DNA of 32,000 bases from Roseithermus sacchariphilus (GCA_003285105.1 CP030158.1:3674449-3706448); one strand, 5' to 3'; shown: positions 12,436 through 32,000, counted from the stretch's first letter. Numbers and translations are program-made. Notes: generated by a model from the letters alone, not told the origin.

Positions 12436-12444
12436 GATGGTCGC

Positions 12445-12852: not shown

Positions 12853-12893
12853 GCGTGCTTCGCGTATCAATCGGATCCGGGAAAATAGGACGT

Positions 12894-12909: not shown

Positions 12910-12934
12910 TCGTTGACGAACGGAACGCCCGAGG

Positions 12935-12960
12935 GGCCCGGTCGAGCGGCCCGGTCGAGC
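12935..12960. repeat. 13-bp perfect tandem direct repeat x2 (GGCCCGGTCGAGC)
   Basis: Read directly: copies at 12935-12947 and 12948-12960, in the intergenic region between the NRDE gene stop (13002) and the BlaI start. Confidence 0.9.
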
Positions 12961-12970
12961 GGCGAATGCC

Positions 12971-12998
12971 CAGCAGCCAGCGGCCAGCAGCCAGCGGC
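12971..12998. repeat. 14-bp perfect tandem direct repeat x2 (CAGCAGCCAGCGGC)
   Basis: Read directly: copies at 12971-12984 and 12985-12998, immediately downstream (on the minus strand) of the NRDE gene stop. Confidence 0.9.
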
Positions 12999-13001
12999 CC
13001 G

Positions 13002-13805
13002 TCACCTGAGCTTCCCGCCTCGTCCGTCCTTCACTCGAAACCGAAACCATCCGTCCGGGGGCCGGGTGCCGTCGGGGCCGTAGGTGCGTTCCGCGAAGAG
13101 GACCTGCCCGTCGTGCCGGATGAGCAGCACCGAAGCCGCCCGCGTGCCGTAGGTGGGAGAGACGATGTGCATCGGGGAGAGCAGCCGTTCCCAGGCGAGG
13201 CCGACGCCCGTATCGGGGAGGGCCTCCTCGGGGGCAGGCGTCGGGTCATGCAGGCGATCCAGCAGCGATCGCGCCAGCCGCTCGGGCGCGGCGCCGTCCT
13301 GCTCCAGCGCGTCCGTCAGCATGGCCTTGCCGGCGCGGACCTTCGGCCAGGGGGTGTCCAGCCGGTGGTTGCTCAGCCCGTAGACGCCGGGCGGGATCCG
13401 CTGCACCCCACCGCCCCGGTTGGAGACGTACGCCATCTCCGCGGGCGTGCCGACGAGGAGGTTGAAGCCGTTGTAGGCCTCCGCCTCCCCGGCGAGGGCT
13501 TCCAGGTAGGCACGCGGCGCAGCGTCTGCGGTGAGGAAGCCGCTGACGAGATGCCCGCGGGAGGGCGCATCGGGCCGATGGTGACCCGGCTCCCGCACGT
13601 TCGTGATGGCCGCAAAGCGCCCGGACCGGGTCACGCCGAGCCAGGTGCCCCCGCTGCGGAGGTCGCGGCCTGCCAGCAGATCGGGGTGTTCGGGCGCCCA
13701 GAACTGCGCGCGCTGCGTGGGGCGCTCGTAGAACTCGTCCCGGTTGGCCGCCAGCACGAGGGCGTAGTCCGGGTGGTGCTGCCAGGCAAAGACGATCAGG
13801 CACAT
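13002..13805 (-). CDS. NRDE (TANGO2/DUF833) family protein
   Basis: 267-aa ORF: MCLIVFAWQHHPDYALVLAANRDEFYERPT...GGTWLGVTRSGRFAAITNVRE...GFNLLVG...YGLSNHRLDTPWPKV. N-terminal Cys2 and the NRDE motif are present. Confidence 0.85.
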   Translation of the reverse strand: MCLIVFAWQHHPDYALVLAANRDEFYERPTQRAQFWAPEHPDLLAGRDLRSGGTWLGVTRSGRFAAITNVREPGHHRPDAPSRGHLVSGFLTADAAPRAYLEALAGEAEAYNGFNLLVGTPAEMAYVSNRGGGVQRIPPGVYGLSNHRLDTPWPKVRAGKAMLTDALEQDGAAPERLARSLLDRLHDPTPAPEEALPDTGVGLAWERLLSPMHIVSPTYGTRAASVLLIRHDGQVLFAERTYGPDGTRPPDGWFRFRVKDGRGGKLR

Positions 13806-20737: not shown

Positions 20738-22787
20738 ACAGAGCTTCCGCCCCAAAGAGATCGCCAAACGACTCGACTACCGCGATCAGCGCACCTACCG
20801 CCTGTTCCGCGACGTCCTGGCCGAGATGGACGAGCAGAACATGCTCGGGAAGGTCAACGGGCGGTACACCTACCGCCCGCGCCCGACCCGCGTCGAAGGC
20901 ATCCTGCGCGTCAACCCTCGCGGCTTCGGCTTCGTGGAGGTCGAAGGGCGCGAGGAAGACCTGTACGTCCGCGAAACCAACATGGGCAATGCCCTCGACG
21001 GCGACCTCGTCGAGGTGGCCCTGGCCGCGCCGACCCGCGGCAGCGGACGCCGGGAGGCCGAGGTGCTCCGCGTCATCGAACGCCGACGCACACAGGTCGT
21101 CGGCACCTTCCAGCAACTCGGCCGCTTCGCCTTCGTCGACCCGGACGACCAGCGCGTGACGCAGGATGTCTACGTCCCCCGCGAAGACTTCAACGGCGCG
21201 CAGGACGGCGACAAGGTCATCGTCTCCATCGACCGCTTCGACGACCGCAAGGCCTCGCCCGAGGGGCGCGTCCTCCAGGTCCTCGGCCGGGCCGACGACC
21301 CGGAGATCCAGGTGCTCGCCCTGGCGATGAGCTTCGACGTCCGAGCCGGCTTCAGCGAGGAGGTCATCCGCGAGGCCGAGGCCATCCCGGATACCATCCC
21401 CGCCGAGGAGATCGAGCGCCGGCTGGATCTGCGCCACAAACGGATCTTCACCATCGACCCGGCCGACGCCAAGGACTTCGACGACGCGATCCACGTCGAG
21501 CGGCTGGACAACGGCAACTTCGAGGTCGGCGTGCACATTGCCGACGTGAGCCACTACGTCCGCCCCGGCACGGCGCTCGACGCCGAGGCCTACGCCCGCG
21601 GCACGAGCGTCTACCTGGTCGACCGCGTCATCCCGATGCTGCCGGAGAAGCTCTCCAACGGCGTCTGTTCCCTGCGACCGCACGAGGACAAGCTGGCCTA
21701 CTCCTGCATCATGGAGGTCTCGCCGCGCGGCTCGGTGAAGAGCTACCAGATCCGGGAGACGGTCATCCACTCCCACCACCGGTTCACGTACGAGGAGGCG
21801 CAGGCCCTGATCGAGGGCGGCCATCCCGACCATCCCTTTGCGGCGGACGTGGTGCAGGCGGCCCGCCTGGCCCGCACCCTCACCCGCAAGCGCCTGCGCG
21901 AGGGCGCCGTCGACTTCGACCTGCCGGAGATCCGGGTGATCCTGGACGAGGCGGGCCGGCCGGTGGAGATCGTGCGCAAAGAACGCAAGGAGGCCAACCG
22001 CCTCATCGAGGAGTTCATGCTGCTCGCCAACCGCACGGTGGCACGCCACATCGGAAAACGCCGCGAGGCCCCGCTGTTCATCTACCGCGTGCACGACCGC
22101 CCGGATGCCGAGAAGATCCAGACGCTGGCCCAGTACGTGCGCATCTTCGGATATCGGCTGAACCTCGACAACGGCAACGTCACCTCCCAAGAACTGAACA
22201 AGCTCATCAGCCACATCAAGGGCAACCCGGAGGCGTACGTGATCGAGGACGCCGCACTCCGGGCCATGTCGAAAGCCAAATACGACCATCAGAACATCGG
22301 GCATTACGGGCTGGGCTTCCGCTACTACACGCACTTCACCAGCCCCATCCGCCGCTACCCCGACCTGATCGCGCACCGCCTGCTGAAGCGGTTCGCCCGG
22401 AAGAAGCAGACGACCTCGGACAAGGACGCCCTGGAGGCCCAGTGCCGGCATTGCTCCGAGCGGGAGCGCGTGGCCACCGAGGCCGAGCGCGAATCCGTCA
22501 AGCTCAAGCAGGTGGAATTCATCCGTCAGCATCTGGGCGAGCGGTTCACCGGGGTCGTCAGCGGCGTCACCAACTTCGGCGTCTTCGTCGAGCTGGAGGA
22601 CGTCCTCGTCGAGGGCATGGTCCACGTGCGCGACCTGGACGACGACTACTACGAATACGACGAGCGGACGTACACGCTCGTCGGGGTCGACACGGGGCGC
22701 ACGTTCCGCCCCGGGGACCGCGTGGAGGTGCAGGTCGTGGCGGCCGACGTCGAGACGCGCAAGGTGGACCTGGTGTTCGTCGATTAA
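20670..22787 (+). CDS. rnr: Ribonuclease R
   Basis: ORF 20424..22787; the recognisable protein starts at ATG 20670 (MSKLPSRKQIRRDILRLLRNHGKQSFRPKEIAKRLDY, N-terminal HTH). Cold-shock/OB regions: GILRVNPRGFGFVE. RNB catalytic domain: FTIDPADAKDFDDAIHVE, HIADVSHYV, RGTSVYLVDRVIPMLPEKLSNGVCSL, GHYGLGFRYYTHFTSPIRRYPDLIAHR. C-terminal S1 domain: FTGVVSGVTNFGVFVEL. Confidence 0.93.
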   Translation: MSKLPSRKQIRRDILRLLRNHGKQSFRPKEIAKRLDYRDQRTYRLFRDVLAEMDEQNMLGKVNGRYTYRPRPTRVEGILRVNPRGFGFVEVEGREEDLYVRETNMGNALDGDLVEVALAAPTRGSGRREAEVLRVIERRRTQVVGTFQQLGRFAFVDPDDQRVTQDVYVPREDFNGAQDGDKVIVSIDRFDDRKASPEGRVLQVLGRADDPEIQVLALAMSFDVRAGFSEEVIREAEAIPDTIPAEEIERRLDLRHKRIFTIDPADAKDFDDAIHVERLDNGNFEVGVHIADVSHYVRPGTALDAEAYARGTSVYLVDRVIPMLPEKLSNGVCSLRPHEDKLAYSCIMEVSPRGSVKSYQIRETVIHSHHRFTYEEAQALIEGGHPDHPFAADVVQAARLARTLTRKRLREGAVDFDLPEIRVILDEAGRPVEIVRKERKEANRLIEEFMLLANRTVARHIGKRREAPLFIYRVHDRPDAEKIQTLAQYVRIFGYRLNLDNGNVTSQELNKLISHIKGNPEAYVIEDAALRAMSKAKYDHQNIGHYGLGFRYYTHFTSPIRRYPDLIAHRLLKRFARKKQTTSDKDALEAQCRHCSERERVATEAERESVKLKQVEFIRQHLGERFTGVVSGVTNFGVFVELEDVLVEGMVHVRDLDDDYYEYDERTYTLVGVDTGRTFRPGDRVEVQVVAADVETRKVDLVFVD

Positions 22788-22847
22788 GAACGGCGGCGGG
22801 GGGCCGATGACAGGGGGAGCATCGCCCTTCATCAGCCCCCCGATCCC

Positions 22848-23285
22848 ATGATGCCCGAGCTTCTGGCCCAGGTGCCCACGCTGGCCCTGATCGCGCTCGT
22901 CTTCTACCTGGCCGCCGGCCTCCGGCGCGAACGTCGCCGCCAGGCTGAGCGACCGACCGCCGGCCCGGACGAGGCCCTGCTCAAACGCCTGGATCAGCTC
23001 TCCACGCGCGTCGACGAGCTCAGCGAGCAGGCGTGGCGCCTGGAGGAGCGCCTGGCCGAGGCGATGGAGACGGCCCGGCACAACCACGAACGCATCGCCA
23101 AACACCGGACGGCGCTGGAGCGCTTCGGGATGTTCCTGGAGGACGAACTCAACCGCATCGACCGTGGCCTGGCCGACGTGCAGGCCCGCGTGAACGCGCT
23201 GACCCTGCCCGATGCGCTCCGCCACGCGGCGGAGGACGAGGAGCTGGCCGAGTATGAGATCGCCAGCCTCGACGCGGCGGCGTGA
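22848..23285 (+). CDS. Hypothetical membrane-anchored coiled-coil protein
   Basis: 145-aa ORF. One N-terminal TM helix (VPTLALIALVFYLAAGL) is followed by a charged helical region (LLKRLDQLSTRVDELSEQAWRLEERLAEAMETARHNHERIAKHRTALERF). I recognise no family. Its codon composition is consistent with the core genome. Confidence 0.5.
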   Translation: MMPELLAQVPTLALIALVFYLAAGLRRERRRQAERPTAGPDEALLKRLDQLSTRVDELSEQAWRLEERLAEAMETARHNHERIAKHRTALERFGMFLEDELNRIDRGLADVQARVNALTLPDALRHAAEDEELAEYEIASLDAAA

Positions 23286-23505
23286 ACCGGAGCGGGCCGG
23301 CGTTGTAGAGGGCTGGTTCCTACCGGGTCTGGCAGTCCCTACAGTGATCCCGCGGAGGGAGGCCAGGGCCTGCCATCCCCGTTGTCCTCAGATGCCTTCG
23401 CATGCCGGGATCACCTGATTCCGCCTTATCGCAACAAAAAAGGCCACGAAAGGAACCCCGAAGAGGCAGCCAGCACCGGGCCACATCCTCTCTTACCCTC
23501 CCGGC

Positions 23506-24354
23506 TCAACGAATCATGAAGGAGACCGCCACCGGACTCCCGTTCTGCATCAAGGGCGGATCAGACGTCCCCGAGCCGCCGAACTCGAAGACCCCGATCT
23601 GGCCACTGTCTTCATGAAGCATGGCATAGAGCGTCGTGCCCGAAGCAACACCCGTTTCCAGCCCCACCGGAATGTTCCGGGTCTTCCCATGGCGTATGAA
23701 CGCTTTGCCCAGGATCACCGAAGGATCAGGCGTTCCGTTCTGCGTGGCCGGGTGAATAACGACCCAGGCATCCGAAGTTACCAGCACTTCGGACAACAAC
23801 ACCACCTCTCCCACTACGTCGCCTACCGTTAGCCCTGGAGCGCCGGGTACCTCTTCCGAGCCTCCATCGAGAGGTGGAACGGCCGGCGGAATCGGCTCCC
23901 TCTCATAATCGAGCTGCTCGAGATCGCCGATCAGGGCTTCCATCTCAGCAATCTCTCGGCGCTGAGCCAGAATGATGTCATCGGCAAGCCGGCGCACTCG
24001 TGGATCCGATATCTTTGCGCGTTCGCTCGTCAGGATCGCGATGGAATGGTGGGGAATCATAGCCTTCATCCAGTCAACGTCATCGACCGTATCCTGGCTC
24101 CGCGCAAGAAACAGCGCCCCCACCAGCACCAGCGCGCTTCCCGCGAAGACAGCAAGGTTCTTTTTGCGATCGGCATACATTTCTCGCATAAATCCGAGCA
24201 TGACTATCGCCATTGCGGATCCCATGTAAAGAGCCATCCAGAAGCGCGTCTCGCTCCACCAGACATGACTAAAACGATAGGCAGTGGAATACATCAAGAT
24301 GAACATCACCACGGTAGAGGTGGCGATCATGGCTATGAATCGCTTATAGGACAT
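23506..24354 (-). CDS. Membrane protein: 3 TM helices + DUF305-like helical segment + C-terminal beta-rich domain (DUF7282-like by eye)
   Basis: ORF 23506..24369; the likely ATG is at 24354 (MSYKRFIAMIATSTVVMFILMY...). The DUF305-type motif is WMKAMIPHHSIAILTSERAKISDPRVRRLADDIILAQRREIAEMEALI. The C-terminal ~108 aa (nt 23509-23832) read AWVVIHPATQNGTPDPSVILGKAFIRHGKTRNIPVGLETGVASGTTLYAMLHEDSGQIGVFEFGGSGTSDPPLMQNGSPVAVSF. Confidence 0.72.
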   Translation of the reverse strand: MSYKRFIAMIATSTVVMFILMYSTAYRFSHVWWSETRFWMALYMGSAMAIVMLGFMREMYADRKKNLAVFAGSALVLVGALFLARSQDTVDDVDWMKAMIPHHSIAILTSERAKISDPRVRRLADDIILAQRREIAEMEALIGDLEQLDYEREPIPPAVPPLDGGSEEVPGAPGLTVGDVVGEVVLLSEVLVTSDAWVVIHPATQNGTPDPSVILGKAFIRHGKTRNIPVGLETGVASGTTLYAMLHEDSGQIGVFEFGGSGTSDPPLMQNGSPVAVSFMIR

Positions 24355-24684
24355 AGGTCGTTCACGCAAAGATATGATCGAAGTACGGGTTACATCTCAA
24401 TACGAGATCGACCAGAAAAAAGGATAACAGGATGGCTTCACCGCGTAAAGAACACACACTGCGAAGCCTGTTCTCCCCTCACGACTTCCGGCCTCTATCG
24501 GCATGAACTGACACAAACGAAATTACAAGGATAGAACCTTAAACTCCTTTCAGGTCACGCAACTGTTACGGCATCTTCAAAAGGATGCGTGGTATGGTAT
24601 GACACCTCCTTGCTCATGCTGCCTCCAGGCAGAACCTGTCAGGATAGGCCTCAAGGCGCCAGATAGCAGGCGTCGTCGCCATCC

Positions 24685-26124
24685 TTAACGATATGGAACT
24701 ACGACCGGCAGGCGAACCACGAAAAGGCTACCCCGAGACGGACCTTCGCTCCAGCCCTCTACGGTGCCACCATACATCTGCGTGATGGCCTGGACGATGG
24801 CCAGGCCCAGCCCACTACCGTGCCGTGCCTGCACCTCCGGCGTATCGGCCCGGTAAAACCGATCAAAGAGATGAGATTGCTGCTGGGCGTCGAATCCAAT
24901 CCCGGTATCCATCACCTCGATACGGGCCTCATTGCCGTCGTGCACCACTCTAACATGAATTCTTCCTCCAACCGGGGTATACTTGATGGCGTTGTCCAAC
25001 AGGTTGTCGACCACCTCTCCGATACGTCCACGATCGGCCTGAACGAAGACGCCTGGCGTCACGTCTATAGCCAGGTCAAGCCCCTCGCGAGCAGCCCGTC
25101 GCTGCATTCGACGAACATGTTCACTGACGACGTCTCCCAGGTCGATCGATTCGCGGGGTAATTCGTGTAATTGATCGACACGGGCGAGTTGCAACAACCC
25201 ACGAATCGTCCCCGTCATTTCTTCCACTTCTTCCATCATGGTCCGAAGCGTATCCCGGTACCCCTCCGGGGTGCGCTCGCGCCGCAGGGCAATCTCGATG
25301 CTGTTGCTCAGGGTAGTGAGTGGGGTTAGAAGTTCGTGTGCGGCATTGTCGGTGAAGCGTCGTTCCCGCTCGAAGGAGGCCTCGATGCGAGCAATCAAGG
25401 CGTTGAACGTCTCAGCCAGTTCGGTCAGTTCATCACGGACCTGAAAGCGGGTGGGCAAGCGGGCACTCAAGTTGGTCACCCGGATCTCATTGGCGGCTTC
25501 GGTAAGCGCCGCGACTGGTTGCAGTGCCCGGCGTGCCAGGAGGGACCCGCCCCAGATGGCCAGCAGGACACTCAGCACAATCCCCACAATCATTGCCAGA
25601 CGCAGCCTGTACAATTCCTGGTGTAGCGACCATTCGAACCCGGTCACCTCCAACCATCCCTGCAGGGCGTCCTCAGCGCTGAAGAGGGGCGTATACATCG
25701 AGCGCGCCGGCTTTCCTTCCCAGACCTGACTGACGGAGGCGGCCACGGTGTCTCCGGGAATGCGCACCTTGAGCGGGCTGTGTTCTGCAAAATTCGGGCT
25801 CTTGTAGAGCACAAGCCCGTCTGGAGTGAGCAGCCGCACGTAGGTACCAAAGACGCCATCGGTTTCATAGGCCACAGAGCGCAGTTCATCCAGCGAGCTA
25901 AAGGCAGGGCTACCCCCCGCAAACTGGACGTAAGGCATGAGTTGTCGCGTCTCGTGGCTCAGGTGCCTATCAAAATCGCGATGCAGACTGGCATGGAAGA
26001 AGAGATAACAGAACAGGGCAAACAGGCTCAACAGAATGAGGAGCGTGAGCCCATACCACATAGTCAGGCGCGTGGAGATACGCAAGTGCATAGAAGCAGG
26101 CATCGGGTATTGACGCTGCATCAC
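24685..26124 (-). CDS. Sensor histidine kinase, CusS/CopS-like heavy-metal sensor type
   Basis: 479-aa ORF. Two TM helices flank a ~120-aa periplasmic domain. HAMP region: LLARRALQPVAALTEAANEIRV...LTELAETFNALIARIE. H-box: RRFTDNAAHELLTPLT. HATPase motifs: DNLLDNAIKYTP, DTGIGF, GSGLGLAIV. The start is GTG 26124 or ATG 26121, overlapping the response-regulator stop by 4 nt or 1 nt. Confidence 0.88.
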   Translation of the reverse strand: MMQRQYPMPASMHLRISTRLTMWYGLTLLILLSLFALFCYLFFHASLHRDFDRHLSHETRQLMPYVQFAGGSPAFSSLDELRSVAYETDGVFGTYVRLLTPDGLVLYKSPNFAEHSPLKVRIPGDTVAASVSQVWEGKPARSMYTPLFSAEDALQGWLEVTGFEWSLHQELYRLRLAMIVGIVLSVLLAIWGGSLLARRALQPVAALTEAANEIRVTNLSARLPTRFQVRDELTELAETFNALIARIEASFERERRFTDNAAHELLTPLTTLSNSIEIALRRERTPEGYRDTLRTMMEEVEEMTGTIRGLLQLARVDQLHELPRESIDLGDVVSEHVRRMQRRAAREGLDLAIDVTPGVFVQADRGRIGEVVDNLLDNAIKYTPVGGRIHVRVVHDGNEARIEVMDTGIGFDAQQQSHLFDRFYRADTPEVQARHGSGLGLAIVQAITQMYGGTVEGWSEGPSRGSLFVVRLPVVVPYR

Positions 26125-26843
26125 GTGGCGTCATGAAGCAGATCCGGGGCCCCCTCTACCACCAGACGATACCCGACGCCCCTGACCGTTTCGATACGAA
26201 CGGCATGGGCCTCAGGGGTACCCGGCTGGACGTCCGCCAGTTTCTGCCTGAGTCCGAAGATGGTCACATCCATCACGTTGTCGGTCACACAAAACGGATC
26301 CCCCCAGACACGCTCCGCCAGCACCGTGCGCGAGATAACCTCGTCTGGATGGCGCATGAAATCTTCGAGTAAGGCAAATTCCTTGGGGCGAAGGTCCAAC
26401 CGGGCACCGTCGAAGGTGGCTTGCCGACGTCTGGTATTCACCTCGAGTAGACCCAGTTGCAGCACCTCCTGCTGCGTTGCCAGCGGGGGACGCCGCAGGA
26501 GAGCCCGGAGCCGAGCCAGCAGTTCTTCGAATTTAAAGGGCTTGGGCAAGTAATCGTCGGCACCGGCATCGAGTCCTGACACTCTATGCTCTACGTCGCT
26601 CAGCGCCGTGAGCATCAAGATCGGCATTTCCCGACCGGCGGCTCGCAAGTTCTCGACGACGGTTTTCCCATCCCGACGAGGAAGACGCCAGTCTACGATC
26701 AGCACATCGTAGGCGTTGGCCAGAGCCCTCAATTCTCCCTCTTCCCCATCTCCCGCCACATCGACGGTGTACCCTTCTTCCTCCAGACCAGTCTGGAGAG
26801 ACCTGGCCAGTCGGACTTCATCTTCGATGAGCAACAGCCACAT
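26121..26843 (-). CDS. OmpR/PhoB-family response regulator, CusR/CopR-like
   Basis: 240-aa ORF: MWLLLIEDEVRLARSLQTGLEEEGYTVDVAGDGEEG...YDVLIVDWRLPRRDG...PILMLTALSDVEHRVSGLDAGADDYLPKPFKFEELLARLRALLRR. The winged-helix output domain reads LRPKEFALLEDFMRHPDEVISRTVLAERVWG...TVRGVGYRL. Confidence 0.9.
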   Translation of the reverse strand: MWLLLIEDEVRLARSLQTGLEEEGYTVDVAGDGEEGELRALANAYDVLIVDWRLPRRDGKTVVENLRAAGREMPILMLTALSDVEHRVSGLDAGADDYLPKPFKFEELLARLRALLRRPPLATQQEVLQLGLLEVNTRRRQATFDGARLDLRPKEFALLEDFMRHPDEVISRTVLAERVWGDPFCVTDNVMDVTIFGLRQKLADVQPGTPEAHAVRIETVRGVGYRLVVEGAPDLLHDAT

Positions 26844-26899
26844 GGACAGAGCAGAAGCGATTGAAGTTGTAGTGCGAAGTGTCTACCCGGTGACCACAC

Positions 26900-26931
26900 A
26901 AAGTTTCGCACCTTAATAAAGTTTAAGCACC
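26900..26931. promoter_or_regulatory. Imperfect direct repeat AAAGTTTCGCACC / AAAGTTTAAGCACC enclosing the dyad CTTAA-N6-TTAAG (26912-26927); candidate autoregulatory site upstream of the response-regulator gene
   Basis: Read directly. It lies 57-88 nt upstream of the response-regulator ATG (26843, minus strand). TTAA cores start at 26913 and 26923, a 10-bp spacing. The functional role is inferred. Confidence 0.35.
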
Positions 26932-26993
26932 CCGATGAACGCCGTGGCTCCCCAGAAACACCCTGTCGATCTGAGCAAAACATTCAGAACGGA

Positions 26994-27021
26994 CTTAACG
27001 GATTTTAAGGAGCCCTTAAGC
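26994..27021. promoter_or_regulatory. Three helically phased TTAA(C/G) boxes (starts 26995, 27005, 27016), including the dyad CTTAA-N6-TTAAG and CCTTAAGC; candidate OmpR-family response-regulator binding site
   Basis: Read directly: aCTTAACggattTTAAGgagccCTTAAGCtagc. OmpR/PhoB-family regulators bind direct repeats spaced by about one helical turn, which is established. Binding by this regulator is inference. Confidence 0.35.
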
Positions 27022-27348
27022 TAGCATTCAGGCGTCCGTTCCGGTCTTGTGAGCCGAAGAAGGGATTCGGTTGATTCCCGCCCGTCACAGAGACATCCTT
27101 GCAACCCATGCAAAACCGCATGACCCACCATGACGTGGTTCATCATTGCAATGACATTATGGGTGGTGTTCCTGCTCGTTTGCTAGATCGTGCTCGACGC
27201 TGGCCTGCTTCCATCACGTCGGCCTGATGCAGACGCTGACGGGAGGACAGGCACCAGCAACACCACGACTCCAACGATGCAACCTCCAGCTCCACCACGC
27301 TAACGACGGGTTTAAATGATACCACTAACCATCCGAATGAGGTATTCC

Positions 27349-28092
27349 ATGACTACCAGACCATCGTCTACCACGAGGCAGGCAGGGGCATGGTTGATGG
27401 CCACGTTGCTGATGCTATGCGTCGGCACACGTCCGGCAGTCGCCCAGCACCAGATCCATCACCCAGACCGGTCCGCCGCTGAACAGGCCGATACGACCCA
27501 CGGCATGATGAGCCTGAGGCAGGGGGGCATGATGCAGGACCCGATGACAGGCATGATGCCGCAGCACATGCAGATGATGCAGCTTCATGTGCAAATGACG
27601 CTGGATATCATGCAGGATCCGCTACGCCGATCGACCTTGATCGTCTACGTGTTACCGACTCTGCAAGAGCCGCTCGCCCTGACAGACGAGCAGGTGAACG
27701 AACTCAAGCAACTGACACAGCAGTTCAAAAAGCAGACAATGGCGCACCAGGAGCAGATGAAGCAGGCAACTGCACAGCTCAAGGAGATCCTGGCCCCGGG
27801 CGACGCCGCGCCGGAGCGGGTCCGGGAACAGCTTGAAGAAACCGCCCGGCACCGTGCCCGGATGCAGGCCCTTGCCTACGAGACTGCCGTGAAGATGAAG
27901 GGCGTGCTCACCGCCGAGCAGCGGGCGGCGCTCGCCGAGATGAAACCCATGCAATTGCACCACCACATGATGAGGAACATGACCATGATGGAAATGATGC
28001 AGGCCATGCAGCCCGGTATGATGTCCTGTGGGATGATGCAGGGCGGTATGATGGGGATGAAGAAGAATACAGCCGGCTCCGGAGCCGGCTGA
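27349..28092 (+). CDS. Periplasmic Spy/CpxP/ZraP-like (LTXXQ) protein with Met/His-rich N- and C-terminal tracts; putative copper-binding chaperone
   Basis: ORF 27316..28092; the likely ATG is at 27349, preceded by GAGG (MTTRPSSTTRQAGAWLMATLLMLCVGTRPAVA|QHQ signal peptide). Two LTXXQ motifs are present (LALTDEQVNELKQL, GVLTAEQRAALAEM) in a helical core. The flanks are HGMMSLRQGGMMQDPMTGMMPQHMQMMQLHVQM and MQLHHHMMRNMTMMEMMQAMQPGMMSCGMMQGGMMGM. Confidence 0.75.
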   Translation: MTTRPSSTTRQAGAWLMATLLMLCVGTRPAVAQHQIHHPDRSAAEQADTTHGMMSLRQGGMMQDPMTGMMPQHMQMMQLHVQMTLDIMQDPLRRSTLIVYVLPTLQEPLALTDEQVNELKQLTQQFKKQTMAHQEQMKQATAQLKEILAPGDAAPERVREQLEETARHRARMQALAYETAVKMKGVLTAEQRAALAEMKPMQLHHHMMRNMTMMEMMQAMQPGMMSCGMMQGGMMGMKKNTAGSGAG

Positions 28093-28130
28093 AGACATCC
28101 CCAGATCTCGTCCTTAAGCAGGCGGGTCGC

Positions 28131-28163
28131 GCCATACTAAAGCCATACTAAAGCCATACTAAA
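28131..28163. repeat. Perfect tandem repeat, 3 x 11 bp (GCCATACTAAA)
   Basis: Read directly: copies at 28131-28141, 28142-28152 and 28153-28163. They lie in the 98-bp spacer between the Spy-like gene stop (28092) and the SHOCT gene start (28191). A second copy of the octamer CCTTAAGC sits 12 nt upstream at 28112-28119. Confidence 0.95.
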
Positions 28164-28190
28164 AAGGAATCAGAAATACGAAGCAGAATC

Positions 28191-28418
28191 ATGTTCGACG
28201 AATATCATAACATGTGGGGCATGCACTGGGGATGGTGGGTCTTCTGGATCGCCTTCATCCTCGTTGTCGTGATGCTGTACTGGCGTGGCCGGACGGAGCC
28301 CACGACCTCCACCCGGGAAACGCCCCTGGAGATGCTCCAGCGGCGCTATGCGGCCGGAGAGATCACAACCGAAGAGTATGAGGAACGCAAGAAGCGCCTG
28401 GAGCGCGACCGGCTTTAA
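28191..28418 (+). CDS. SHOCT-domain small membrane protein
   Basis: 75-aa ORF. It has one Trp-rich TM helix (WGWWVFWIAFILVVVMLYW) and a C-terminal SHOCT-type motif, LEMLQRRYAAGEITTEEYEERKKRLE. Confidence 0.7.
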   Translation: MFDEYHNMWGMHWGWWVFWIAFILVVVMLYWRGRTEPTTSTRETPLEMLQRRYAAGEITTEEYEERKKRLERDRL

Positions 28419-28471
28419 CCTTTTTAGAAGCTACCCAGACTCACCCATCCTCTTTCGTACCCGACCGGCAC

Positions 28472-29548
28472 ATGATTCCTCTGCCCGAGTGGGCGCCTAA
28501 CGTCCACCCCCTCATCGTCCATTTCCCCATCGCGCTGCTGGCAACGGCCGCGCTCGTGGACCTTTTCTCGCTCTTTACCCGCAAGTGGCAGGGCACGCGC
28601 ATTGCGGCTGCGGTGCTCTACGCACTCGGTGCGGTGGGCACGCTGGCGGCCTACCTCTCCGGGCAGGATGCCGCCGACGGGCTGAATCTTCCGGCCACGG
28701 TCATCCCGCATGTGACCGACCATGCCGACTGGGCCGAACGCACCCTCTGGTATTTCGGGATCTATGCCGTGGTGCGTCTCTTCGTGCTCTGGTTTGAGCT
28801 CAAGGGCAGGCGCTGGACGCAGGGATGGATGCGCGTGTTGCTCTTTCTCGTCGGTGCCGGCGGCTACTACCTGGTGATGCAAACCGGCGACCACGGGGCA
28901 AAGCTCGTCTACGCCTACGGCGCCGGCGTGCAGCCGATCATGGATCAAATAACGAACCAGCCGGCCCGACGCGAGCCGGTTGCGCCCGGCCAGGTCGCAC
29001 GCGTGCAGGTCCAGGAAGATGGCTCCTGGTACCTGGTTGTCGGCGCGGGTGCGCGCCAGGTGCATCCGCAAGACCTGCGCTTCGTGCTGGGCGGCTTCGA
29101 AGACCTGCTCGTCGAGGCGGCCGAGACAGACACGGCCCTCACCGTGCAGCTTCAAGGAGGTCCCGTGCTGTTTACTGCCGGGGGGCCCATCGGCAGCGTG
29201 CAGGCCGAGGCTACACTAAACCTCGCGTTGTTCGACGGCACCCTGCGCCTCGTGCATCACGTGCAGGATGCACAGAATTATGATTTTCTGGAAGTTGCCA
29301 GCGGCCGAATGCGACAGGGCCGCGTACAGAGTGGCAGTGTTGAAATCTTCGATGACAAGCCCTTCCAAGCCCAGGATTGGATCAACCTTCAAGCCGTCAG
29401 CGACGGTACGCACTTCCGGGGATATGCCGCTGGCGAAATGCTCACGCACGGCCATGGAAACGTCCCACGGCCAGGTGCCGTGGGCCTCTACCTCGACGGT
29501 ACTGGCACGGTGCTCTTGCGGCGCCTGGCGGCCTCCTCGCTACGATAA
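28472..29548 (+). CDS. DUF2231-type 4-TM membrane protein fused to an unassigned ~190-aa beta-rich domain
   Basis: 358-aa ORF. The N-terminus, NVHPLIVHFPIALLATAALVDLF, matches the DUF2231 signature (HP.lVHFPIal), and three further TM helices end near aa 138. The C-terminal domain (nt ~28979-29545) contains WYLVVG...FEDLLVEA...LRLVHHVQDAQNYDFLEV...GSVEIFDDKPFQAQDWINLQAVSDGTHFRGYAAGEMLTHGHG...GAVGLYLDGTGTVLLRRL. By eye this resembles a LamG/DUF1080-like jelly-roll, but the call is weak. Confidence 0.68.
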   Translation: MIPLPEWAPNVHPLIVHFPIALLATAALVDLFSLFTRKWQGTRIAAAVLYALGAVGTLAAYLSGQDAADGLNLPATVIPHVTDHADWAERTLWYFGIYAVVRLFVLWFELKGRRWTQGWMRVLLFLVGAGGYYLVMQTGDHGAKLVYAYGAGVQPIMDQITNQPARREPVAPGQVARVQVQEDGSWYLVVGAGARQVHPQDLRFVLGGFEDLLVEAAETDTALTVQLQGGPVLFTAGGPIGSVQAEATLNLALFDGTLRLVHHVQDAQNYDFLEVASGRMRQGRVQSGSVEIFDDKPFQAQDWINLQAVSDGTHFRGYAAGEMLTHGHGNVPRPGAVGLYLDGTGTVLLRRLAASSLR

Positions 29549-29576
29549 CCCGAACGTTCCACGCCCTCCTGATTCC

Positions 29577-30086
29577 ATGATCGCCACTCGCCTTCTCGCT
29601 GCCACGTTACTCCTCTGCTTACCTGGTCTGGCCGCCTGCACCGCTGATGAGCCACCCGTTGCCATGCCCGACCCGCAAGTGGCTCCCGCCCGCGCGAATG
29701 ATGCTCATGCGGCCGTTGAAACGGTGCTCGAACGCCAGGAACAGGCCATCCGGGAAGCCGACATGGCGGCGCTCGACGCGCTCTGGTCCGGCAGCGAAGG
29801 CGTCTACGTCTTCGAGCAAGGCGGGGTGGACAGTTCCTGGGCTGCCTACCGGGATCACCATCTCGGGCCGGAGCTTGAGGCACTCGAAGACCTCGACTTC
29901 CGGCACGAGGACGTCCGCATCCGCGCCAGCGGCGACCTGGCCGTGGCAACGGGGCGCTACGTCCTGACAGCCCACCACGACGGGCAGGACATCGAGAGCC
30001 GGGGCGTCTTCACCACCGCCCTGGAGCGCGAGGCGGGCACCTGGAAGATCGTCCACTCGCACCTGAGCCGCCGTCCGCGCCGGTAG
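29577..30086 (+). CDS. SnoaL/DUF4440-like (NTF2-fold) lipoprotein
   Basis: ORF 29268..30086 overlaps the previous gene. An in-frame ATG at 29577 gives MIATRLLAATLLLCLPGLAAC (lipobox LAA|C). The mature part, AVETVLERQEQAIREADMAALDALWSGSEGVYVFEQGG...GDLAVATGRYVLTAHHDGQDIESRGVFTTALEREAGTWKIVHSHLS, is the typical NTF2-like/DUF4440 pattern. Confidence 0.65.
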   Translation: MIATRLLAATLLLCLPGLAACTADEPPVAMPDPQVAPARANDAHAAVETVLERQEQAIREADMAALDALWSGSEGVYVFEQGGVDSSWAAYRDHHLGPELEALEDLDFRHEDVRIRASGDLAVATGRYVLTAHHDGQDIESRGVFTTALEREAGTWKIVHSHLSRRPRR

Positions 30087-30100
30087 CCGTTGAAAAAAAT

Positions 30101-30136
30101 ACAGGCGTAGACCGATGGAAAGTCTGCGCCGCCTGT
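30101..30136. terminator. Stem-loop (ACAGGCG-TAGAC...GTCTG-bulge-CGCCTGT) between the SnoaL-like gene and copA, with an A7 tract on its left
   Basis: Read directly. 30101-30107 pairs with 30130-30136, and 30108-30112 pairs with 30122-30126 (one G-U pair), leaving a 3-nt bulge and a 9-nt loop. A7 lies at 30093-30099 and only a weak T-run (ctgttt) is on the right. The U-tract geometry therefore fits minus-strand termination better than plus-strand termination, so the role is unclear. Confidence 0.3.
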
Positions 30137-30170
30137 CTGTTTACCTGACCCGATTGTTTTCCAACTTGCT

Positions 30171-32000
30171 ATGCCCATGGATCGCCGCACGTTCATCCGT
30201 TCCTCTGCCGCGCTGGGCCTGCTCGCCGGCATGCAGTCCCTCGCTCCTGCCTGGGCCCGCAGCACACCCACCAATCCCATCCGCTCGCCAGCCCTGGAGC
30301 CGACCCGCCGCGCCGGACGCCTGGTGGAATACGACCTCACCATCGACCGCACACCGTTAACCTTCGGCGGCAAAACGGGCCGCGCCGTGACGATCAACGG
30401 CACCGTACCGGGCCCACTCCTTCGATTCACCGAGGGCGACGAGGCTATCATCCGTGTACATAATCGGCTGCATGAAGACACGTCGATCCACTGGCACGGC
30501 ATATTACTCCCCAATGCGATGGACGGAGTGCCCGGAGTCAACTTCCCCGGCATCAAAGCGCGCTCCACGTTCGAGTACCGCTTTCCCATTCAGCAGTATG
30601 GGACGTACTGGTACCACAGCCACTCTGCCTTTCAGGAACAACTCGGCCATTACGGCCCGCTCGTGATCGACCCTGCCGGAGGCGATCCCTATACTTATGA
30701 CCGTGAATATGTCGTCGTACTCTCAGACTGGACATTCGAAGATCCCCACGACGTACTGGACAACCTCAAAAATCGTCCAAATTACTACAACTTTCAGCGA
30801 CAGACACTCTTCGGTCTTCTGCGCGGAGAAGATATGCGACTCCAGGACCGGCTTGCCTGGAGTCGCATGCGCATGGATCCCACAGACATTTCTGACATCA
30901 CCGGAGCCACCTACACCTATCTCATGAACGGCCAGGCTCCAGACCCAGGCTGGTTCGGGCGGTTCCAGCCCGGGGAGCGCGTCCATCTTCGCTTTATCAA
31001 CGCCAGCGCGGGCACCTTCTACGACGTACGTATCCCCGGTCTACCGCTCACGGTCGTCCAGGCCAGCGGGCAACACATCGAGCCGGTCGTGGTCGATGAG
31101 TTTCGCATTGGGATCGCCGAGACGTACGATGTGATCGTCGAGCCCAAGGATCAGGCCTACACAGTCTTTGCCGAGTCGATGGACCGCTCGGGCTATGCCC
31201 GCGGCACACTCGCGCCACGCCCTGGTATGACCGCCCCGGTGCCATCCCGCCGGAAGCGCCCGCTTTTGACGATGATGGACATGGGAATGGCGCACGGCGG
31301 CTCCGGGATGGACCACGCCATGATGAAGCAGGGGGAAGTGCCAGTGCATCACGGGAGCAGGAACCACGGTGCGATGGAGAAACGCGCAAGGGACGCCTCC
31401 TCCGACACCACGGCGGCTATGCATGGCCATTCAATGCACGATCCGCACGCCGGACACGGGATGACCGGCATGGCCGACATGCCAGGCGCTGCCCCCACGA
31501 GGCTGCGCCCTCCCGGCACGCTCCCCGAACCGGTACCTCACGGCTCCGACGGCCATGGCCCGGCCAACGCCATGGCACCGGACGTCACGCGCAGCCGACT
31601 TCACGAGCCCGGAGTGGGCCTGGAGGACGTGCCGCACCGCGTACTCGTCTACACGGACCTGCGTGCGCTTCATCCAGAGCCTCGTCGCGCCCCCGACCGC
31701 GAAATCGAGCTCCACCTGACAGGCAACATGGAGCGCTACATGTGGTCAATCAACGGCAAGACGTACGCGGAAGACCCACTCATCCCGATGACGCTGGGCG
31801 AGCGCCTCCGGCTCACAATGGTCAACGACACCATGATGAACCACCCGATGCACCTACACGGCATGTGGATGGAGCTTGAGAACGGCCATGGCGAACGCAT
31901 CCCCCGGGTCCACACGGTCATCGTCAAGCCGGCCGAGCGGCTTTCGGTGCTCATCGAGGTCGACGCGCTCGGCCCGTGGGCCTTCCATTGCCACGTGCTC
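30171..32000 (+). CDS. copA: Multicopper oxidase CopA/PcoA (copper resistance protein A), Tat-exported; continues beyond the right window edge
   Basis: Not in the supplied ORF track because it is edge-truncated. My translation from ATG 30171 is open for all 610 codons. The twin-arginine signal is MPMDRRTFIRSSAALGLLAG. Copper-site motifs: SIHWHGILLP (HWHG at 30489-30500), YGTYWYHSHS, HPMHLHGMWM, WAFHCHVL. There is an internal Met/His-rich insert. Confidence 0.92.
   Translation, partial: MPMDRRTFIRSSAALGLLAGMQSLAPAWARSTPTNPIRSPALEPTRRAGRLVEYDLTIDRTPLTFGGKTGRAVTINGTVPGPLLRFTEGDEAIIRVHNRLHEDTSIHWHGILLPNAMDGVPGVNFPGIKARSTFEYRFPIQQYGTYWYHSHSAFQEQLGHYGPLVIDPAGGDPYTYDREYVVVLSDWTFEDPHDVLDNLKNRPNYYNFQRQTLFGLLRGEDMRLQDRLAWSRMRMDPTDISDITGATYTYLMNGQAPDPGWFGRFQPGERVHLRFINASAGTFYDVRIPGLPLTVVQASGQHIEPVVVDEFRIGIAETYDVIVEPKDQAYTVFAESMDRSGYARGTLAPRPGMTAPVPSRRKRPLLTMMDMGMAHGGSGMDHAMMKQGEVPVHHGSRNHGAMEKRARDASSDTTAAMHGHSMHDPHAGHGMTGMADMPGAAPTRLRPPGTLPEPVPHGSDGHGPANAMAPDVTRSRLHEPGVGLEDVPHRVLVYTDLRALHPEPRRAPDREIELHLTGNMERYMWSINGKTYAEDPLIPMTLGERLRLTMVNDTMMNHPMHLHGMWMELENGHGERIPRVHTVIVKPAERLSVLIEVDALGPWAFHCHVL
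31272..31481 (+). other. Met/His-rich insert of CopA
   Basis: MMDMGMAHGGSGMDHAMMKQGEVPVHHGSRNHGAMEKRARDASSDTTAAMHGHSMHDPHAGHGMTGMADM. Methionine-rich loops are a known feature of CopA/PcoA/CueO-type periplasmic copper oxidases. Confidence 0.8.

What the first reader, a model, noticed from the sequence alone, without database searches (positions are those of the whole stretch)
23506..32000. System-level hypothesis: an uncharacterised envelope copper-stress module assembled around CopA
Seven consecutive low-GC genes make a coherent set, but only three belong to characterised families (CusS-like kinase, CusR-like regulator, CopA). The other four or five are:
- a TM-anchored DUF305 + beta-domain fusion
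- a Met/His-rich Spy/ZraP-like protein
- a SHOCT membrane protein
- a DUF2231 + jelly-roll-like fusion
- an NTF2-like lipoprotein

All are predicted envelope proteins with no assigned role. They occupy the positions where classic cop/pco loci carry copB/C/D/E or cusCFBA. Shared CCTTAAGC/TTAAG boxes in two intergenic regions hint at a common regulon. This could be a distinct, undescribed periplasmic copper-handling pathway.
Basis: inference. Interest (0 to 1): 0.7.

Follow-up and report, generated by a model that had tools for sequence, protein, structure and literature searches.

The report
Copper-resistance island with conserved unknown helpers
This stretch is a horizontally acquired copper-resistance island, made of a copper-sensing two-component switch, a copper oxidase and five envelope proteins; the five recur next to copper genes in many related bacteria, although no experiment has tested most of them.

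Summary
Window 23506-32000 holds eight same-island genes with lower GC3 (0.66-0.80) than the host genes (0.90-0.92). They are a membrane-anchored DUF305+DUF7282 protein, a CopS/CopR-like kinase and regulator, a Met/His-rich CpxP/ZraP-like periplasmic protein, a SHOCT membrane protein, a DUF2231 + ConA-like jelly-roll fusion, an NTF2-like lipoprotein, and a CopA/PcoA-type multicopper oxidase.

- The full set recurs in Roseithermus sacchariphilus RA (93% nt identity, same chromosomal site), a Bacteroidota MAG, Rhodocaloribacter litoris and metagenome contigs.
- The DUF2231 fusion has copper genes within 10 kb in 29 of 37 genomes. These are P1B-1 ATPase, CusBA or CopA/CopB, and are often directly adjacent.
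- A CCTKAA-N6-TTMAGG operator is conserved next to the regulator across genera.

The interpretation needs trimming.
- DUF305 is the characterised CopM copper-binding family.
- The Met-rich protein belongs to the CpxP/Spy/ZraP/CnrX superfamily, in the classic divergent position.
- CopB follows CopA just beyond the window, so nothing replaces it.
- The helpers are modular and are not built around CopA.

Verdict: a new variant of a known kind, a CopRS-regulated cop locus with uncharacterised conserved accessory proteins. Interest is moderate.

The parts
23506..24369 (-). P1: membrane-anchored (3 TM) CopM-like half-DUF305 domain plus a C-terminal DUF7282 beta domain. Both soluble domains are predicted to be periplasmic.
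   Evidence: Pfam DUF305 at 40.6 bits and DUF7282 at 65.3 bits. NCBIfam CopM at 41.6 bits, below the cutoff of 90. The domain aligns to both repeats of CopM structure 5fej, with the M-x-PHH motif kept. It is 98% identical in strain RA. TM+DUF305 homologues occur in Cu loci L007, L024 and L034.
24537..24554 (.). Operator box 3, CCTTAAACTCCTTTCAGG, in the gap between the kinase gene and P1. It would give P1 its own regulated promoter.
   Evidence: The same site is conserved in L081 at 7171. It is nearly identical to the boxes in L018 and L022.
24685..26124 (-). P2: CopS/CusS-like heavy-metal sensor histidine kinase.
   Evidence: HAMP, HisKA and HATPase_c domains. TIGR01386 hit over the full length at 239 bits, below the cutoff of 292.
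26121..26843 (-). P3: CopR/CusR-like OmpR-family response regulator.
   Evidence: Response_reg plus Trans_reg_C. TIGR01387 at 202 bits, below the cutoff of 279.
26911..27020 (.). Divergent promoter region with operator boxes 1 (26911-26928) and 2 (26993-27010) and an extra TTAAG half-site (27016-27020). The TTAA cores are 10-11 bp apart.
   Evidence: Equivalent boxes sit next to the regulator in L001, L007, L009, L010, L018, L019, L022, L024, L081, L082, L089 and L091.
27130..27186 (+). Remnant of a small hydrophobic leader ORF (18 codons, then TAG). Relatives have 48-70 aa versions.
   Evidence: L081 has TGG where the window has TAG. A 48-aa gene is called in L082 and a 70-aa gene in L091.
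27349..28092 (+). P4: secreted Met/His-rich CpxP/Spy/ZraP/CnrX-like helical protein. It is the first gene of the divergent operon.
   Evidence: Sub-threshold LTXXQ (21.6 bits) and Metal_resist (20.4 bits) hits. The family profile hits CpxP-like 5ihf at E 2.7e-4 and CnrX/NccX at E 0.1-0.3. Alignment A3 shows conserved Met/His tails and two LxxxQ motifs. P4 is followed by SHOCT and lies next to the TCS in all 6 contexts examined.
28191..28418 (+). P5: single-pass membrane protein with a cytoplasmic SHOCT domain.
   Evidence: Pfam SHOCT at 40.2 bits. Conserved after P4 in L001, L081, L082 (two copies), L089 and L091 (two copies), and in the Balneolaceae cop loci L007, L009 and L019.
28472..29548 (+). 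P6: 4-TM DUF2231 domain with invariant His12, His17 and His84 (Asp69 and Asp86 at least 90% conserved) near the periplasmic face, fused to a periplasmic ConA-like/DUF1080-like beta-sandwich with invariant His263, His314, His326 and His328.
   Evidence: Copper genes lie within 10 kb in 29 of 37 genome loci. The C-domain is confined to this architecture, with 356 clusters among 1.84 billion representatives. The TM domain has no PDB fold match.
29577..30086 (+). P7: NTF2-like (SnoaL_3/DUF4440) lipoprotein with a conserved YRDHHLGPE motif.
   Evidence: It lies directly downstream of P6 in L001, L031, L034, L037, L038, L082 and L091. Distant homologues sit beside an MCO and DUF305 genes (L083) and beside a CopC-CopD fusion (L085). 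One homologue is fused to PF07987, the family I recall as YcnI/DUF1775.
30171..32000 (+). P8: Tat-exported CopA/PcoA-type multicopper oxidase with a Met/His-rich loop. It is cut by the window end.
   Evidence: TIGR01480 at 746 bits, above the cutoff of 479, and three Cu-oxidase Pfam domains. In L081 it continues and is followed by CopB, a DUF302 protein and a second MCO.

Best explanation
This is the left two-thirds of a horizontally acquired copper-resistance island of about 11.8 kb in a Roseithermus-like Rhodothermales chromosome. It is inserted between the RNase R neighbourhood and hemF/hemH.

Shown:
- A CopS/CopR-like two-component system is transcribed divergently from an operon P4-P5-P6-P7-copA. 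In the near-identical strain RA the operon continues with copB, a DUF302 gene and a second MCO.
- A CopM-like gene (P1) lies behind the kinase with its own copy of the operator.
- The operator, CCTKAA-N6-TTMAGG, has TTAA cores one helical turn apart. It is conserved beside the regulator in several genera.
- The accessory genes are co-conserved, and the P6 and P7 families are linked to copper genes well beyond this island.

Inferred mechanism:
- Periplasmic Cu(I)/Ag(I) activates CopS. Phospho-CopR then binds the boxes and induces both arms.
- CopA oxidises Cu(I) to Cu(II), and CopB acts at the outer membrane.
- P1 (CopM-like) and P4 (Met/His tails) sequester periplasmic copper.
- P4, by analogy with cpxP-cpxRA and zraP-zraSR (same divergent layout, same superfamily), probably also feeds back on the kinase or chaperones damaged envelope proteins.
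- P6 is a periplasm-facing membrane protein with a conserved His/Asp/Gly pocket about 1.5 helical turns below the outer surface and a His-rich jelly-roll domain. It most likely binds copper, or a haem b cofactor, and works beside whichever Cu(I) exporter or oxidase it is encoded with. One possibility is that it accepts or hands over exported Cu(I).
- P7 is its lipoprotein partner.
- P5 is a small membrane adaptor.
For: - Gene identities.
- Foreign composition.
- Same island at the same site in strain RA, 93% nt identity over 17364-32000, continuing with CopB, a DUF302 protein, a second MCO, then hemF and hemH.
- Full set in L001.
- Cassette TCS<>leader-P4-SHOCT(-DUF411)-P6-SnoaL with an ATPase (L082), with CopA/CopB (L091), or as P4-SHOCT-ATPase (L089).
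- TCS<>P6-CopA-CopB in L018, L022 and L024, and P6-CopA on the short contig L010.
- P6 family: 29 of 37 loci have Cu genes within 10 kb. Nine sit within 300 bp downstream of a P1B-1 ATPase that carries an HMA domain. The CPC, YN and MxxSS motifs can be read in the representative sequence printed. Others abut CusA, CopB or an MCO.
- P7 relatives in other copper loci, and a fusion to PF07987.
- Operator: three sites in the window against 0.02-0.08 expected. There are eight exact matches in 1.42 Mb of fetched loci. All are intergenic and in loci that carry the module, five of the six with the TCS itself (L010 is a short contig). One is upstream of CopA in L091 and one upstream of the ATPase operon in L082.
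- CopM biochemistry: PMC4335983. P1 aligns to CopM structures.
- P4 superfamily.
- P6 structure and conserved residues.
Against: - No expression, binding or genetic data exist for any of these genes. Copper induction is inferred only from family membership and neighbourhood.
- The kinase and regulator score below NCBIfam's trusted cutoffs for the heavy-metal subfamily.
- P4 is below the Pfam gathering thresholds.
- P1 is only half a CopM and is below the CopM equivalog cutoff.
- Eight of 37 P6 loci show no copper genes within 10 kb. One of them (L006) lies among cytochrome c biogenesis and multihaem genes.
- Short DUF2231-only relatives pair with a heavy-metal-type TCS and a rubrerythrin-like gene. 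This points to a redox role rather than a copper-binding role for the TM domain.
- There is no operator in the 84-bp gap before copA in the window, so co-transcription is assumed.
Confidence: 0.75

Rival explanations
1. The accessory proteins, especially P6 and P7, are a redox or repair module rather than copper handlers. In this reading, DUF2231 is a haem-b membrane electron carrier feeding a periplasmic partner, analogous to HprRS-controlled MsrPQ. It would deal with copper-triggered oxidative damage, for example to the many Met-rich envelope proteins.
For: - Invariant His17 (TM1) and His84 (TM3) sit at equal depth. Invariant Gly/Ala residues on TM2 and TM4 are at that same depth. This is a classic bis-His haem pocket pattern.
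- Short DUF2231 proteins lie in operons with a heavy-metal/HprRS-like TCS and a rubrerythrin-like gene in at least 8 loci.
- Cytochrome c genes lie near P6 in L007, L008, L030 and L032, and in L006 and L091.
Against: - The tightest linkage of full-length P6 is to Cu(I) exporters, at 0-300 bp behind P1B-1 ATPases.
- The TM domain has no fold match to a known cytochrome b.
- The conserved periplasm-edge His12, Asp69 and Asp86 and the His-rich jelly-roll fit a metal site equally well.
- No haem evidence can be obtained in silico.
Confidence: 0.2
2. One reading: these proteins form a distinct periplasmic copper pathway built around CopA that replaces CopB/C/D/E or CusCFBA.
For: CopC and CopD are absent from the window and from the RA island. 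The accessory genes are co-conserved with CopA in the window, L001, L081 and L091.
Against: - CopB directly follows CopA in L081, L001, L018, L022, L024 and L091.
- CusBA (CusCBA in L089) lies beside the same cassette in L001 and L089.
- The cassette occurs with a P-type ATPase and no MCO in L082 and L089.
- P6 is found more often with ATPases than with CopA.
Confidence: 0.07
3. The unknown genes are passengers on a mobile metal island and have no role in copper biology.
For: The island has foreign composition, and its two arms differ in GC3: 0.66-0.67 for P1-P3 and 0.76-0.80 for P4-P8. There are no functional data.
Against: - Order and adjacency are kept across genera with 45-70% protein identity, and with different effectors.
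- The P6 and P7 families are independently enriched next to copper genes in unrelated loci.
- All the genes lie behind a conserved operator.
- No mobility genes or tRNA are present.
Confidence: 0.05

Closest known systems
cop/pco copper-resistance loci (copABCD-copRS of Pseudomonas syringae; pcoABCDRSE of E. coli plasmids)
   Same: A Tat-exported CopA/PcoA multicopper oxidase with a Met-rich loop (TIGR01480 at 746 bits), CopB immediately downstream in the near-identical relative, and an adjacent CopRS/PcoRS-type two-component system.
   Different: There is no CopC, CopD or PcoE. Five other envelope proteins are present instead or in addition: P1, P4, P5, P6 and P7. The TCS is divergent from the structural operon, and the operator is CCTKAA-N6-TTMAGG. 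The host is a Rhodothermales bacterium, not a proteobacterium.
Synechocystis copMRS (CopM, a DUF305 periplasmic Cu(I)-binding protein, with CopRS; PMC4335983)
   Same: A DUF305 protein is encoded in one transcription direction with a copper two-component system. The M-x-PHH helices align to the CopM crystal structures 5fej/5ffa.
   Different: P1 has a single DUF305 repeat where CopM has two. It is anchored by three TM helices instead of being secreted, and it carries an extra DUF7282 beta domain. It lies after the kinase behind its own operator rather than first in the operon. It is below the NCBIfam CopM cutoff (41.6 bits against 90).
cpxP-cpxRA and zraP-zraSR envelope-stress triads of Enterobacteria (established knowledge)
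   Same: A small secreted helical LTXXQ-type protein is encoded divergently from, and presumably controlled by, its two-component system. ZraP also carries a Gly/Met/His-rich metal-binding tail.
   Different: P4 matches the LTXXQ and Metal_resist models only below threshold. Its long Met/His-rich tails at both ends suggest Cu(I)/Ag(I) rather than Zn. The TCS is OmpR/CusR-type, not sigma54-type as in ZraR. A SHOCT membrane protein is always co-encoded.
CusF/CusB and CopA-ATPase hand-off of Cu(I) in E. coli (established knowledge)
   Same: A periplasm-exposed accessory protein is encoded next to a Cu(I) exporter. This is the genomic position the P6 family occupies behind P1B-1 ATPases and CusA.
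   Different: P6 is unrelated in fold: a 4-TM DUF2231 domain plus a ConA-like sandwich, not a small OB-fold. Its conserved residues are His and Asp, not Met and Trp. No copper binding has been shown.

Membership tests
CopA/PcoA copper-resistance multicopper oxidase (TIGR01480) | Full-length match above the trusted cutoff, three cupredoxin domains and a Tat signal | tested here: met
   746 bits against a cutoff of 479. Cu-oxidase_3, Cu-oxidase and Cu-oxidase_2 domains are present. The N-terminus reads MPMDRRTFIRSSAALG. The C-terminus is cut by the window end.
cop/pco system | CopB outer-membrane partner next to CopA | tested here: met
   CopB is not inside the window. In L081, which is 93% identical right up to the window end, CopB (PF05275) starts 33 bp after CopA. 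CopB is also present in L001, L018, L022, L024 and L091.
cop/pco system | CopC and CopD periplasmic and inner-membrane copper proteins | tested here: not met
   No CopC or CopD Pfam hit in any window gene or in the RA island.
Heavy-metal two-component system (TIGR01386 cztS_silS_copS / TIGR01387 cztR_silR_copR) | Score above NCBIfam's trusted cutoff | tested here: not met
   These are the best hits and cover the full length, but they score 239 against 292.55 and 202 against 279.2. The proteins are CopRS-like by best match and by context, not by cutoff.
CopM family metallochaperone (NF049983) / DUF305 | Two tandem DUF305 helical repeats in a secreted soluble protein, with an equivalog score of at least 90 | tested here: not met
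   One repeat only, at residues 87-152. It scores 41.6 bits and is preceded by three TM helices. The Pfam DUF305 domain itself is met, at 40.6 bits against 27.
CpxP/Spy/ZraP (Pfam LTXXQ, Metal_resist) | Gathering-threshold match, two LTXXQ motifs and a signal peptide | tested here: inconclusive
   21.6 bits against 24.3, and 20.4 against 29.2. The family profile hits CpxP-like 5ihf at E 2.7e-4 and CnrX/NccX at E 0.1-0.3. The motifs LALTDEQ and VLTAEQR and a signal peptide are present. Some family members carry precomputed PF07813 or PF13801 hits.
DUF2231 | Pfam gathering-threshold match, 4 TM helices and an HPxxVHFPI motif | tested here: met
   52.6 bits against 26.4. The AF2 model has four helices. 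The motif is invariant.
ConA-like / DUF1080 (3-keto-disaccharide hydrolase) beta-sandwich | Jelly-roll fold and a Pfam match | tested here: inconclusive
   The fold criterion is met: Foldseek matches CBM66 and GH16 at E 4e-10 to 1e-6. By sequence, only 2 of 18 members hit PF06439 (best E 3e-5) and 3 of 18 hit Laminin_G_3.
SHOCT | Pfam gathering-threshold match | tested here: met
   40.2 bits against 27.
NTF2-like SnoaL_3/DUF4440 | Pfam gathering-threshold match | tested here: met
   60.6 bits against 22, and 55.6 against 25.2. PDB entry 3bb9 matches at E 2e-8.

The most novel reading that the evidence does not exclude
The DUF2231 + ConA-like membrane protein, with its NTF2-like lipoprotein partner, is a previously unrecognised periplasm-facing component of Cu(I) detoxification in Rhodothermota, Balneolota, Bacteroidota and neighbouring phyla. 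It would work alongside whichever effector is present: a P1B-1 ATPase, CusCBA or CopA/CopB. It could be the membrane acceptor or relay for exported Cu(I), or a haem-dependent redox helper. In the same reading, the Met-rich CpxP/ZraP-like protein plus the SHOCT protein form a feedback and chaperone arm that makes CopRS a three- or four-component copper envelope-stress system.
Probability: 0.35. Interest if true: 0.7.

Novelty: new variant of a known kind. Interest (0 to 1): 0.5.

Why it matters
Copper homeostasis is well mapped in Proteobacteria, Firmicutes and cyanobacteria, but barely in the FCB-group phyla. This island gives concrete, testable candidates.

- One DUF family has no published function (P6). 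It lies next to copper export or oxidation genes in about 80% of the genomes sampled.
- An NTF2-like lipoprotein subfamily recurs in copper loci.
- A CpxP/ZraP-like Met-rich protein suggests that the regulator-plus-periplasmic-modulator logic of Cpx and Zra has been reused for copper.
- A conserved operator sequence would allow regulon prediction across Rhodothermales and relatives.

A cultivated, genome-sequenced carrier exists in Roseithermus sacchariphilus RA, so the hypotheses can be tested directly.

Tried and rejected
- Exact look-ups of the window's P6 in the contig index found nothing. The source genome was identified indirectly, through P4 homologue P0126, as a close relative of R. 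sacchariphilus RA.
- A Foldseek search of the isolated DUF2231 TM domain against PDB gave only generic four-helix bundles, best E 0.43. There is no structural lead.
- A profile of the P6 family against PDB sequences gave only the weak CBM66 match.
- I searched for other domain architectures containing the P6 C-domain, hoping for an informative fusion. The domain is confined to this fusion or to split stand-alone forms.
- Pfam scans of longer DUF2231 ORFs showed no informative fusion partners, only one TPR.
- The sigma-70 promoter and terminator scan was uninformative, with counts at shuffle level.
- No tRNA or Rfam element marks the island boundary.
- Literature searches for DUF2231, SHOCT + copper, DUF4440 + copper and LTXXQ + copper found no description of this module.
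- I rejected the P-type ATPase reading of 'CopA': the gene is the multicopper oxidase.
- I rejected the idea that the helpers substitute for CopB.


Full report
**What is there**

ORF listing and six-frame translation, together with Pfam and NCBIfam scans, give eight genes in 23506-32000.

On the minus strand:
- P3, 26121-26843: an OmpR-type regulator. Its best NCBIfam hit is cztR_silR_copR at 202 bits.
- P2, 24685-26124: a HAMP/HisKA/HATPase kinase. Its best hit is cztS_silS_copS at 239 bits over the full length.
- P1, 23506-24369, follows after a 315-bp gap. It has three N-terminal TM helices, one DUF305 repeat and a DUF7282 domain.

On the plus strand, separated by gaps of only 28-98 bp:
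- P4, 27349-28092: signal peptide, Met/His-rich tails, and sub-threshold LTXXQ and Metal_resist hits.
- P5, 28191-28418: one TM helix plus SHOCT.
- P6, 28472-29548: DUF2231 plus a C-terminal domain.
- P7, 29577-30086: lipobox LAAC plus SnoaL_3/DUF4440.
- P8, 30171 to beyond 32000: Tat signal and TIGR01480 copper_res_A at 746 bits.

'CopA' here is therefore the PcoA-type multicopper oxidase.

The island is compositionally foreign. GC is 0.602 against 0.698 upstream. GC3 is 0.66-0.67 for P1-P3 and 0.76-0.80 for P4-P8, against 0.90-0.92 for the flanking TamB-like, RNase R and 145-aa genes.

**Source and true extent**

A P4 homologue led to Rhodothermaceae bacterium RA, now Roseithermus sacchariphilus RA (CP020382; PMC6539836). 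Its locus L081 is 93% identical in DNA to window 17364-32000 and has the same flanks.

In L081, CopA is followed by CopB (PF05275), a DUF302 protein, a second multicopper oxidase of 476 aa and a 153-aa ORF. The housekeeping genes hemF and hemH come next. The island is therefore about 11.8 kb, and the window cuts it inside copA.

No tRNA, Rfam element or mobility gene marks the island.

I collected the P6 family and aligned it (A1). I then fetched 80 genome loci with 10-kb flanks. I scanned their ORFs with the window proteins and with representatives of the commonest neighbour clusters. The identities of those representatives were checked by Pfam: P1B-type ATPase with an HMA domain, HME-RND pump, CusB with a heavy-metal-binding domain, and CopB.

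- L001, a Bacteroidota MAG, has the whole set in the same order: CusBA, kinase, regulator, then the divergent P4, SHOCT, P6, SnoaL, CopA, CopB.
- L018, L022 and L024 have the TCS divergent from P6-CopA-CopB. L010, a short Rhodothermales contig, keeps P6-CopA.
- The Balneolaceae loci L007, L009 and L019 have CopA, CopB, SHOCT, a second MCO, an ArsP-type permease and P6 with the TCS. L007 also has a TM-DUF305 protein.
- The Cytophagales loci L031, L034, L037 and L038 split P6 into two adjacent ORFs, followed by the SnoaL gene and (in three of the four) a nearby MCO.

Of 37 loci with a full-length or split P6, 29 have copper genes within 10 kb.
- In nine, P6 starts 0-300 bp after a P1B ATPase. 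The representative ATPase shows the Cu(I)-type CPC, YN and MxxSS signatures (sequence; classification from established knowledge).
- In two, P6 lies just downstream of CusA (4 bp and 464 bp).
- Short DUF2231-only relatives show copper genes in only 8 of 43 loci.

Contexts of P4 homologues add three points.
- Rhodocaloribacter litoris has the TCS divergent from a 48-aa ORF, P4, SHOCT, SHOCT, DUF411, P6 and SnoaL, followed by an ICMT-family gene, a 218-aa ORF and a P-type ATPase.
- L091 has the same cassette ending in CopA-CopB.
- L089 has CusCBA and the TCS divergent from P4, SHOCT, a 139-aa ORF and a P-type ATPase.

P7's more distant relatives (35-40% identity) lie in two other copper contexts. 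One sits beside an outer-membrane factor, an MCO, a cytochrome c and three DUF305 genes (L083). Another sits right after a CopC-CopD fusion (L085). One homologue is fused to PF07987, which I recall as the YcnI/DUF1775 copper-binding domain.

The set is therefore genuinely co-conserved and copper-linked. It is also modular, because the effector varies.

**Operator**

CTTAA-N6-TTAAG occurs twice exactly in the P3/P4 divergent region (26912, 26994) and once with one mismatch before P1 (24538). Only 0.02 is expected by chance.

Comparison of the equivalent intergenic regions refines the motif to CCTKAA-N6-TTMAGG. It gives three window hits at up to one mismatch, against 0.08 expected.

It also gives eight exact hits in the 1.42 Mb of fetched loci. 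All eight are intergenic and lie in loci that carry the module:
- between the regulator and P6 in L018 and L022;
- upstream of P6 in L010;
- before P1 in L081;
- next to the regulator and before CopA in L091;
- before the ATPase operon and before a Usp gene in L082.

In the window, box 2 is followed by a further TTAAG half-site. This gives three TTAA cores spaced 10-11 bp apart, which is the geometry expected for OmpR-family binding (inference).

**What the 'unknowns' are**

P1:
- It aligns to both repeats of the Synechocystis CopM crystal structures and keeps the M-x-PHH motif.
- CopM is a periplasmic Cu(I)-binding resistance protein co-encoded with CopRS (PMC4335983). A DUF305 lipoprotein also sits in the M. 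xanthus CorSR copper cluster (PMC3707914).
- P1 is a membrane-tethered half-CopM with an added beta domain, and it is below the CopM equivalog cutoff.

P4:
- The family has only 19 hits, all of the named ones from Rhodothermales. It has invariant Met/His positions in both tails and two LxxxQ helices.
- Its profile hits a CpxP-like structure (5ihf, E 2.7e-4), and more weakly CnrX/NccX.
- Its position, first gene divergent from the TCS, is that of cpxP and zraP (established knowledge).
- P4 is only 68% identical between the window and strain RA, while its neighbours are 85-98% identical.

P6:
- AlphaFold models have pLDDT 83-84. They show four TM helices and a beta-sandwich.
- The positive-inside distribution of the loops puts the N-terminus, the TM2-3 loop and the sandwich in the periplasm (inference from sequence).
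- The sandwich matches CBM66, GH16 and ConA-like folds and weakly matches DUF1080.
- The invariant residues H17, G64, H84, T138 and G142 lie at one depth near the outer face, with H12 (invariant) and D69 and D86 (at least 90% conserved) nearby. H263, H314, H326 and H328 are invariant in the sandwich.
- This fits either a copper site or a bis-His haem b pocket.
- The TM domain has no PDB fold relative.
- The C-domain occurs essentially only in this architecture (356 clusters).

P7:
- It is an NTF2-like lipoprotein (3bb9, E 2e-8).
- Its invariant residues are E80, Y91, H95, P98, E99, A122 and W156, with H94 at least 90% conserved.

P5:
- It is a one-TM protein with a cytoplasmic SHOCT domain.
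- The only related experimental hint found is a SHOCT membrane protein induced by silver in Haloferax (PMC10694973).

**Mechanism**

- Shown: the gene content, the order, the operator conservation and the neighbourhood statistics.
- Inferred: CopS senses periplasmic copper, and CopR activates both arms.
- Inferred: CopA and CopB detoxify Cu(I).
- Inferred: P1 and P4 buffer copper, with P4 possibly modulating CopS as CpxP and ZraP modulate their kinases.
- Inferred: P6 and P7 act at the inner-membrane and periplasm interface next to the exporter or oxidase.

The main rival for P6 is a redox role. At least eight loci have a short DUF2231 gene 7-22 bp upstream of a heavy-metal-type regulator and kinase, followed by a rubrerythrin-like gene. 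One full-length P6 lies between a CcmF-like gene and a multihaem cytochrome.

**Comparison and verdict**

The locus is a CopRS-regulated cop-type island (CopA and CopB present, CopC and CopD absent). It combines a copMRS-like arm and a cpxP/zraP-like arrangement with three accessory families that have no functional literature.

It is not a pathway that replaces CopB or Cus, and it is not centred on CopA. I rate it a new variant of a known kind, with moderate interest. The P6 family's consistent linkage to all three classes of Cu(I) effectors is the most valuable lead.

Noticed in passing
window 27130-27186 (+): A small hydrophobic ORF (MTWFIIAMTLWVVFLLVC) ends at a TAG. Strain RA has TGG there and reads on to about 60 aa. 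Homologous 48-70 aa ORFs precede P4 in L082 and L091. Different short hydrophobic ORFs precede P6 in L010, L018 and L022. This may be a conserved mini-membrane protein or leader, truncated in this genome.
   Followed up: partly
window 27349-28092 vs L081 9914-10648: P4 is only 68% identical between the window and strain RA, whereas the neighbouring island proteins are 85-98% identical. The Met/His-rich protein is evolving much faster than the rest of the island.
   Followed up: no
L081 11015-12088; window 29577-30086: The intact P6 gene (94% identical) has no gene call on record for strain RA in the contig collection's gene table. The NCBI protein for P7 in the source genome (P0145) is 140 aa, and homologues keep the 29-residue longer form with the lipoprotein signal. 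That implies the deposited start is too far downstream.
   Followed up: partly
window 23506-26843 vs 27349-32000: The two arms of the island differ in GC3: 0.66-0.67 for P1-P3 and 0.76-0.80 for P4-P8. This suggests a composite origin or different residence times.
   Followed up: no
L052, L056-L059, L063-L065 (about 10000-13300 in each): Short DUF2231-only genes lie 7-22 bp upstream of a heavy-metal-type response regulator and kinase (TIGR01387 at 243 bits, TIGR01386 at 234 bits). A rubrerythrin-like gene follows in the three loci checked (L056, L058, L064). This is a recurrent operon in Bacteroidota and Ignavibacteriota and hints at a redox or sensing role for the DUF2231 membrane domain.
   Followed up: partly
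L030, L031, L034, L037, L038 (about 9990-11260; L038 3184-4429): In Cytophagales and Cyclobacteriaceae the P6 fusion is split into two adjacent ORFs, DUF2231 and the jelly-roll domain. In four of the five loci the SnoaL gene follows directly. This is natural evidence that the two halves are separate functional modules that work together.
   Followed up: partly
P0172 (282 aa, ENA contig): A P7-family SnoaL_3 domain is fused to PF07987, which I recall as the YcnI/DUF1775 copper-binding domain. This is a domain-fusion hint that the NTF2-like lipoprotein is copper-related.
   Followed up: no
window 8001-10000: A second dip in GC (0.60-0.65) lies around a 444-aa ORF at 8532-9866 that has no Pfam hit. 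Neighbouring genes include a BlaR1-type M56 peptidase fusion (10003-12435, minus strand), an HDOD protein and a DUF2851 protein.
   Followed up: no
L082 13515-13532 and 19391-19408; L091 9514-9531: Extra exact copies of the operator lie in front of an ICMT-family gene/218-aa ORF/P-type ATPase operon and a Usp gene in R. litoris, and in front of CopA in L091. The CopR-like regulon probably extends beyond the divergent operon in those genomes.
   Followed up: partly
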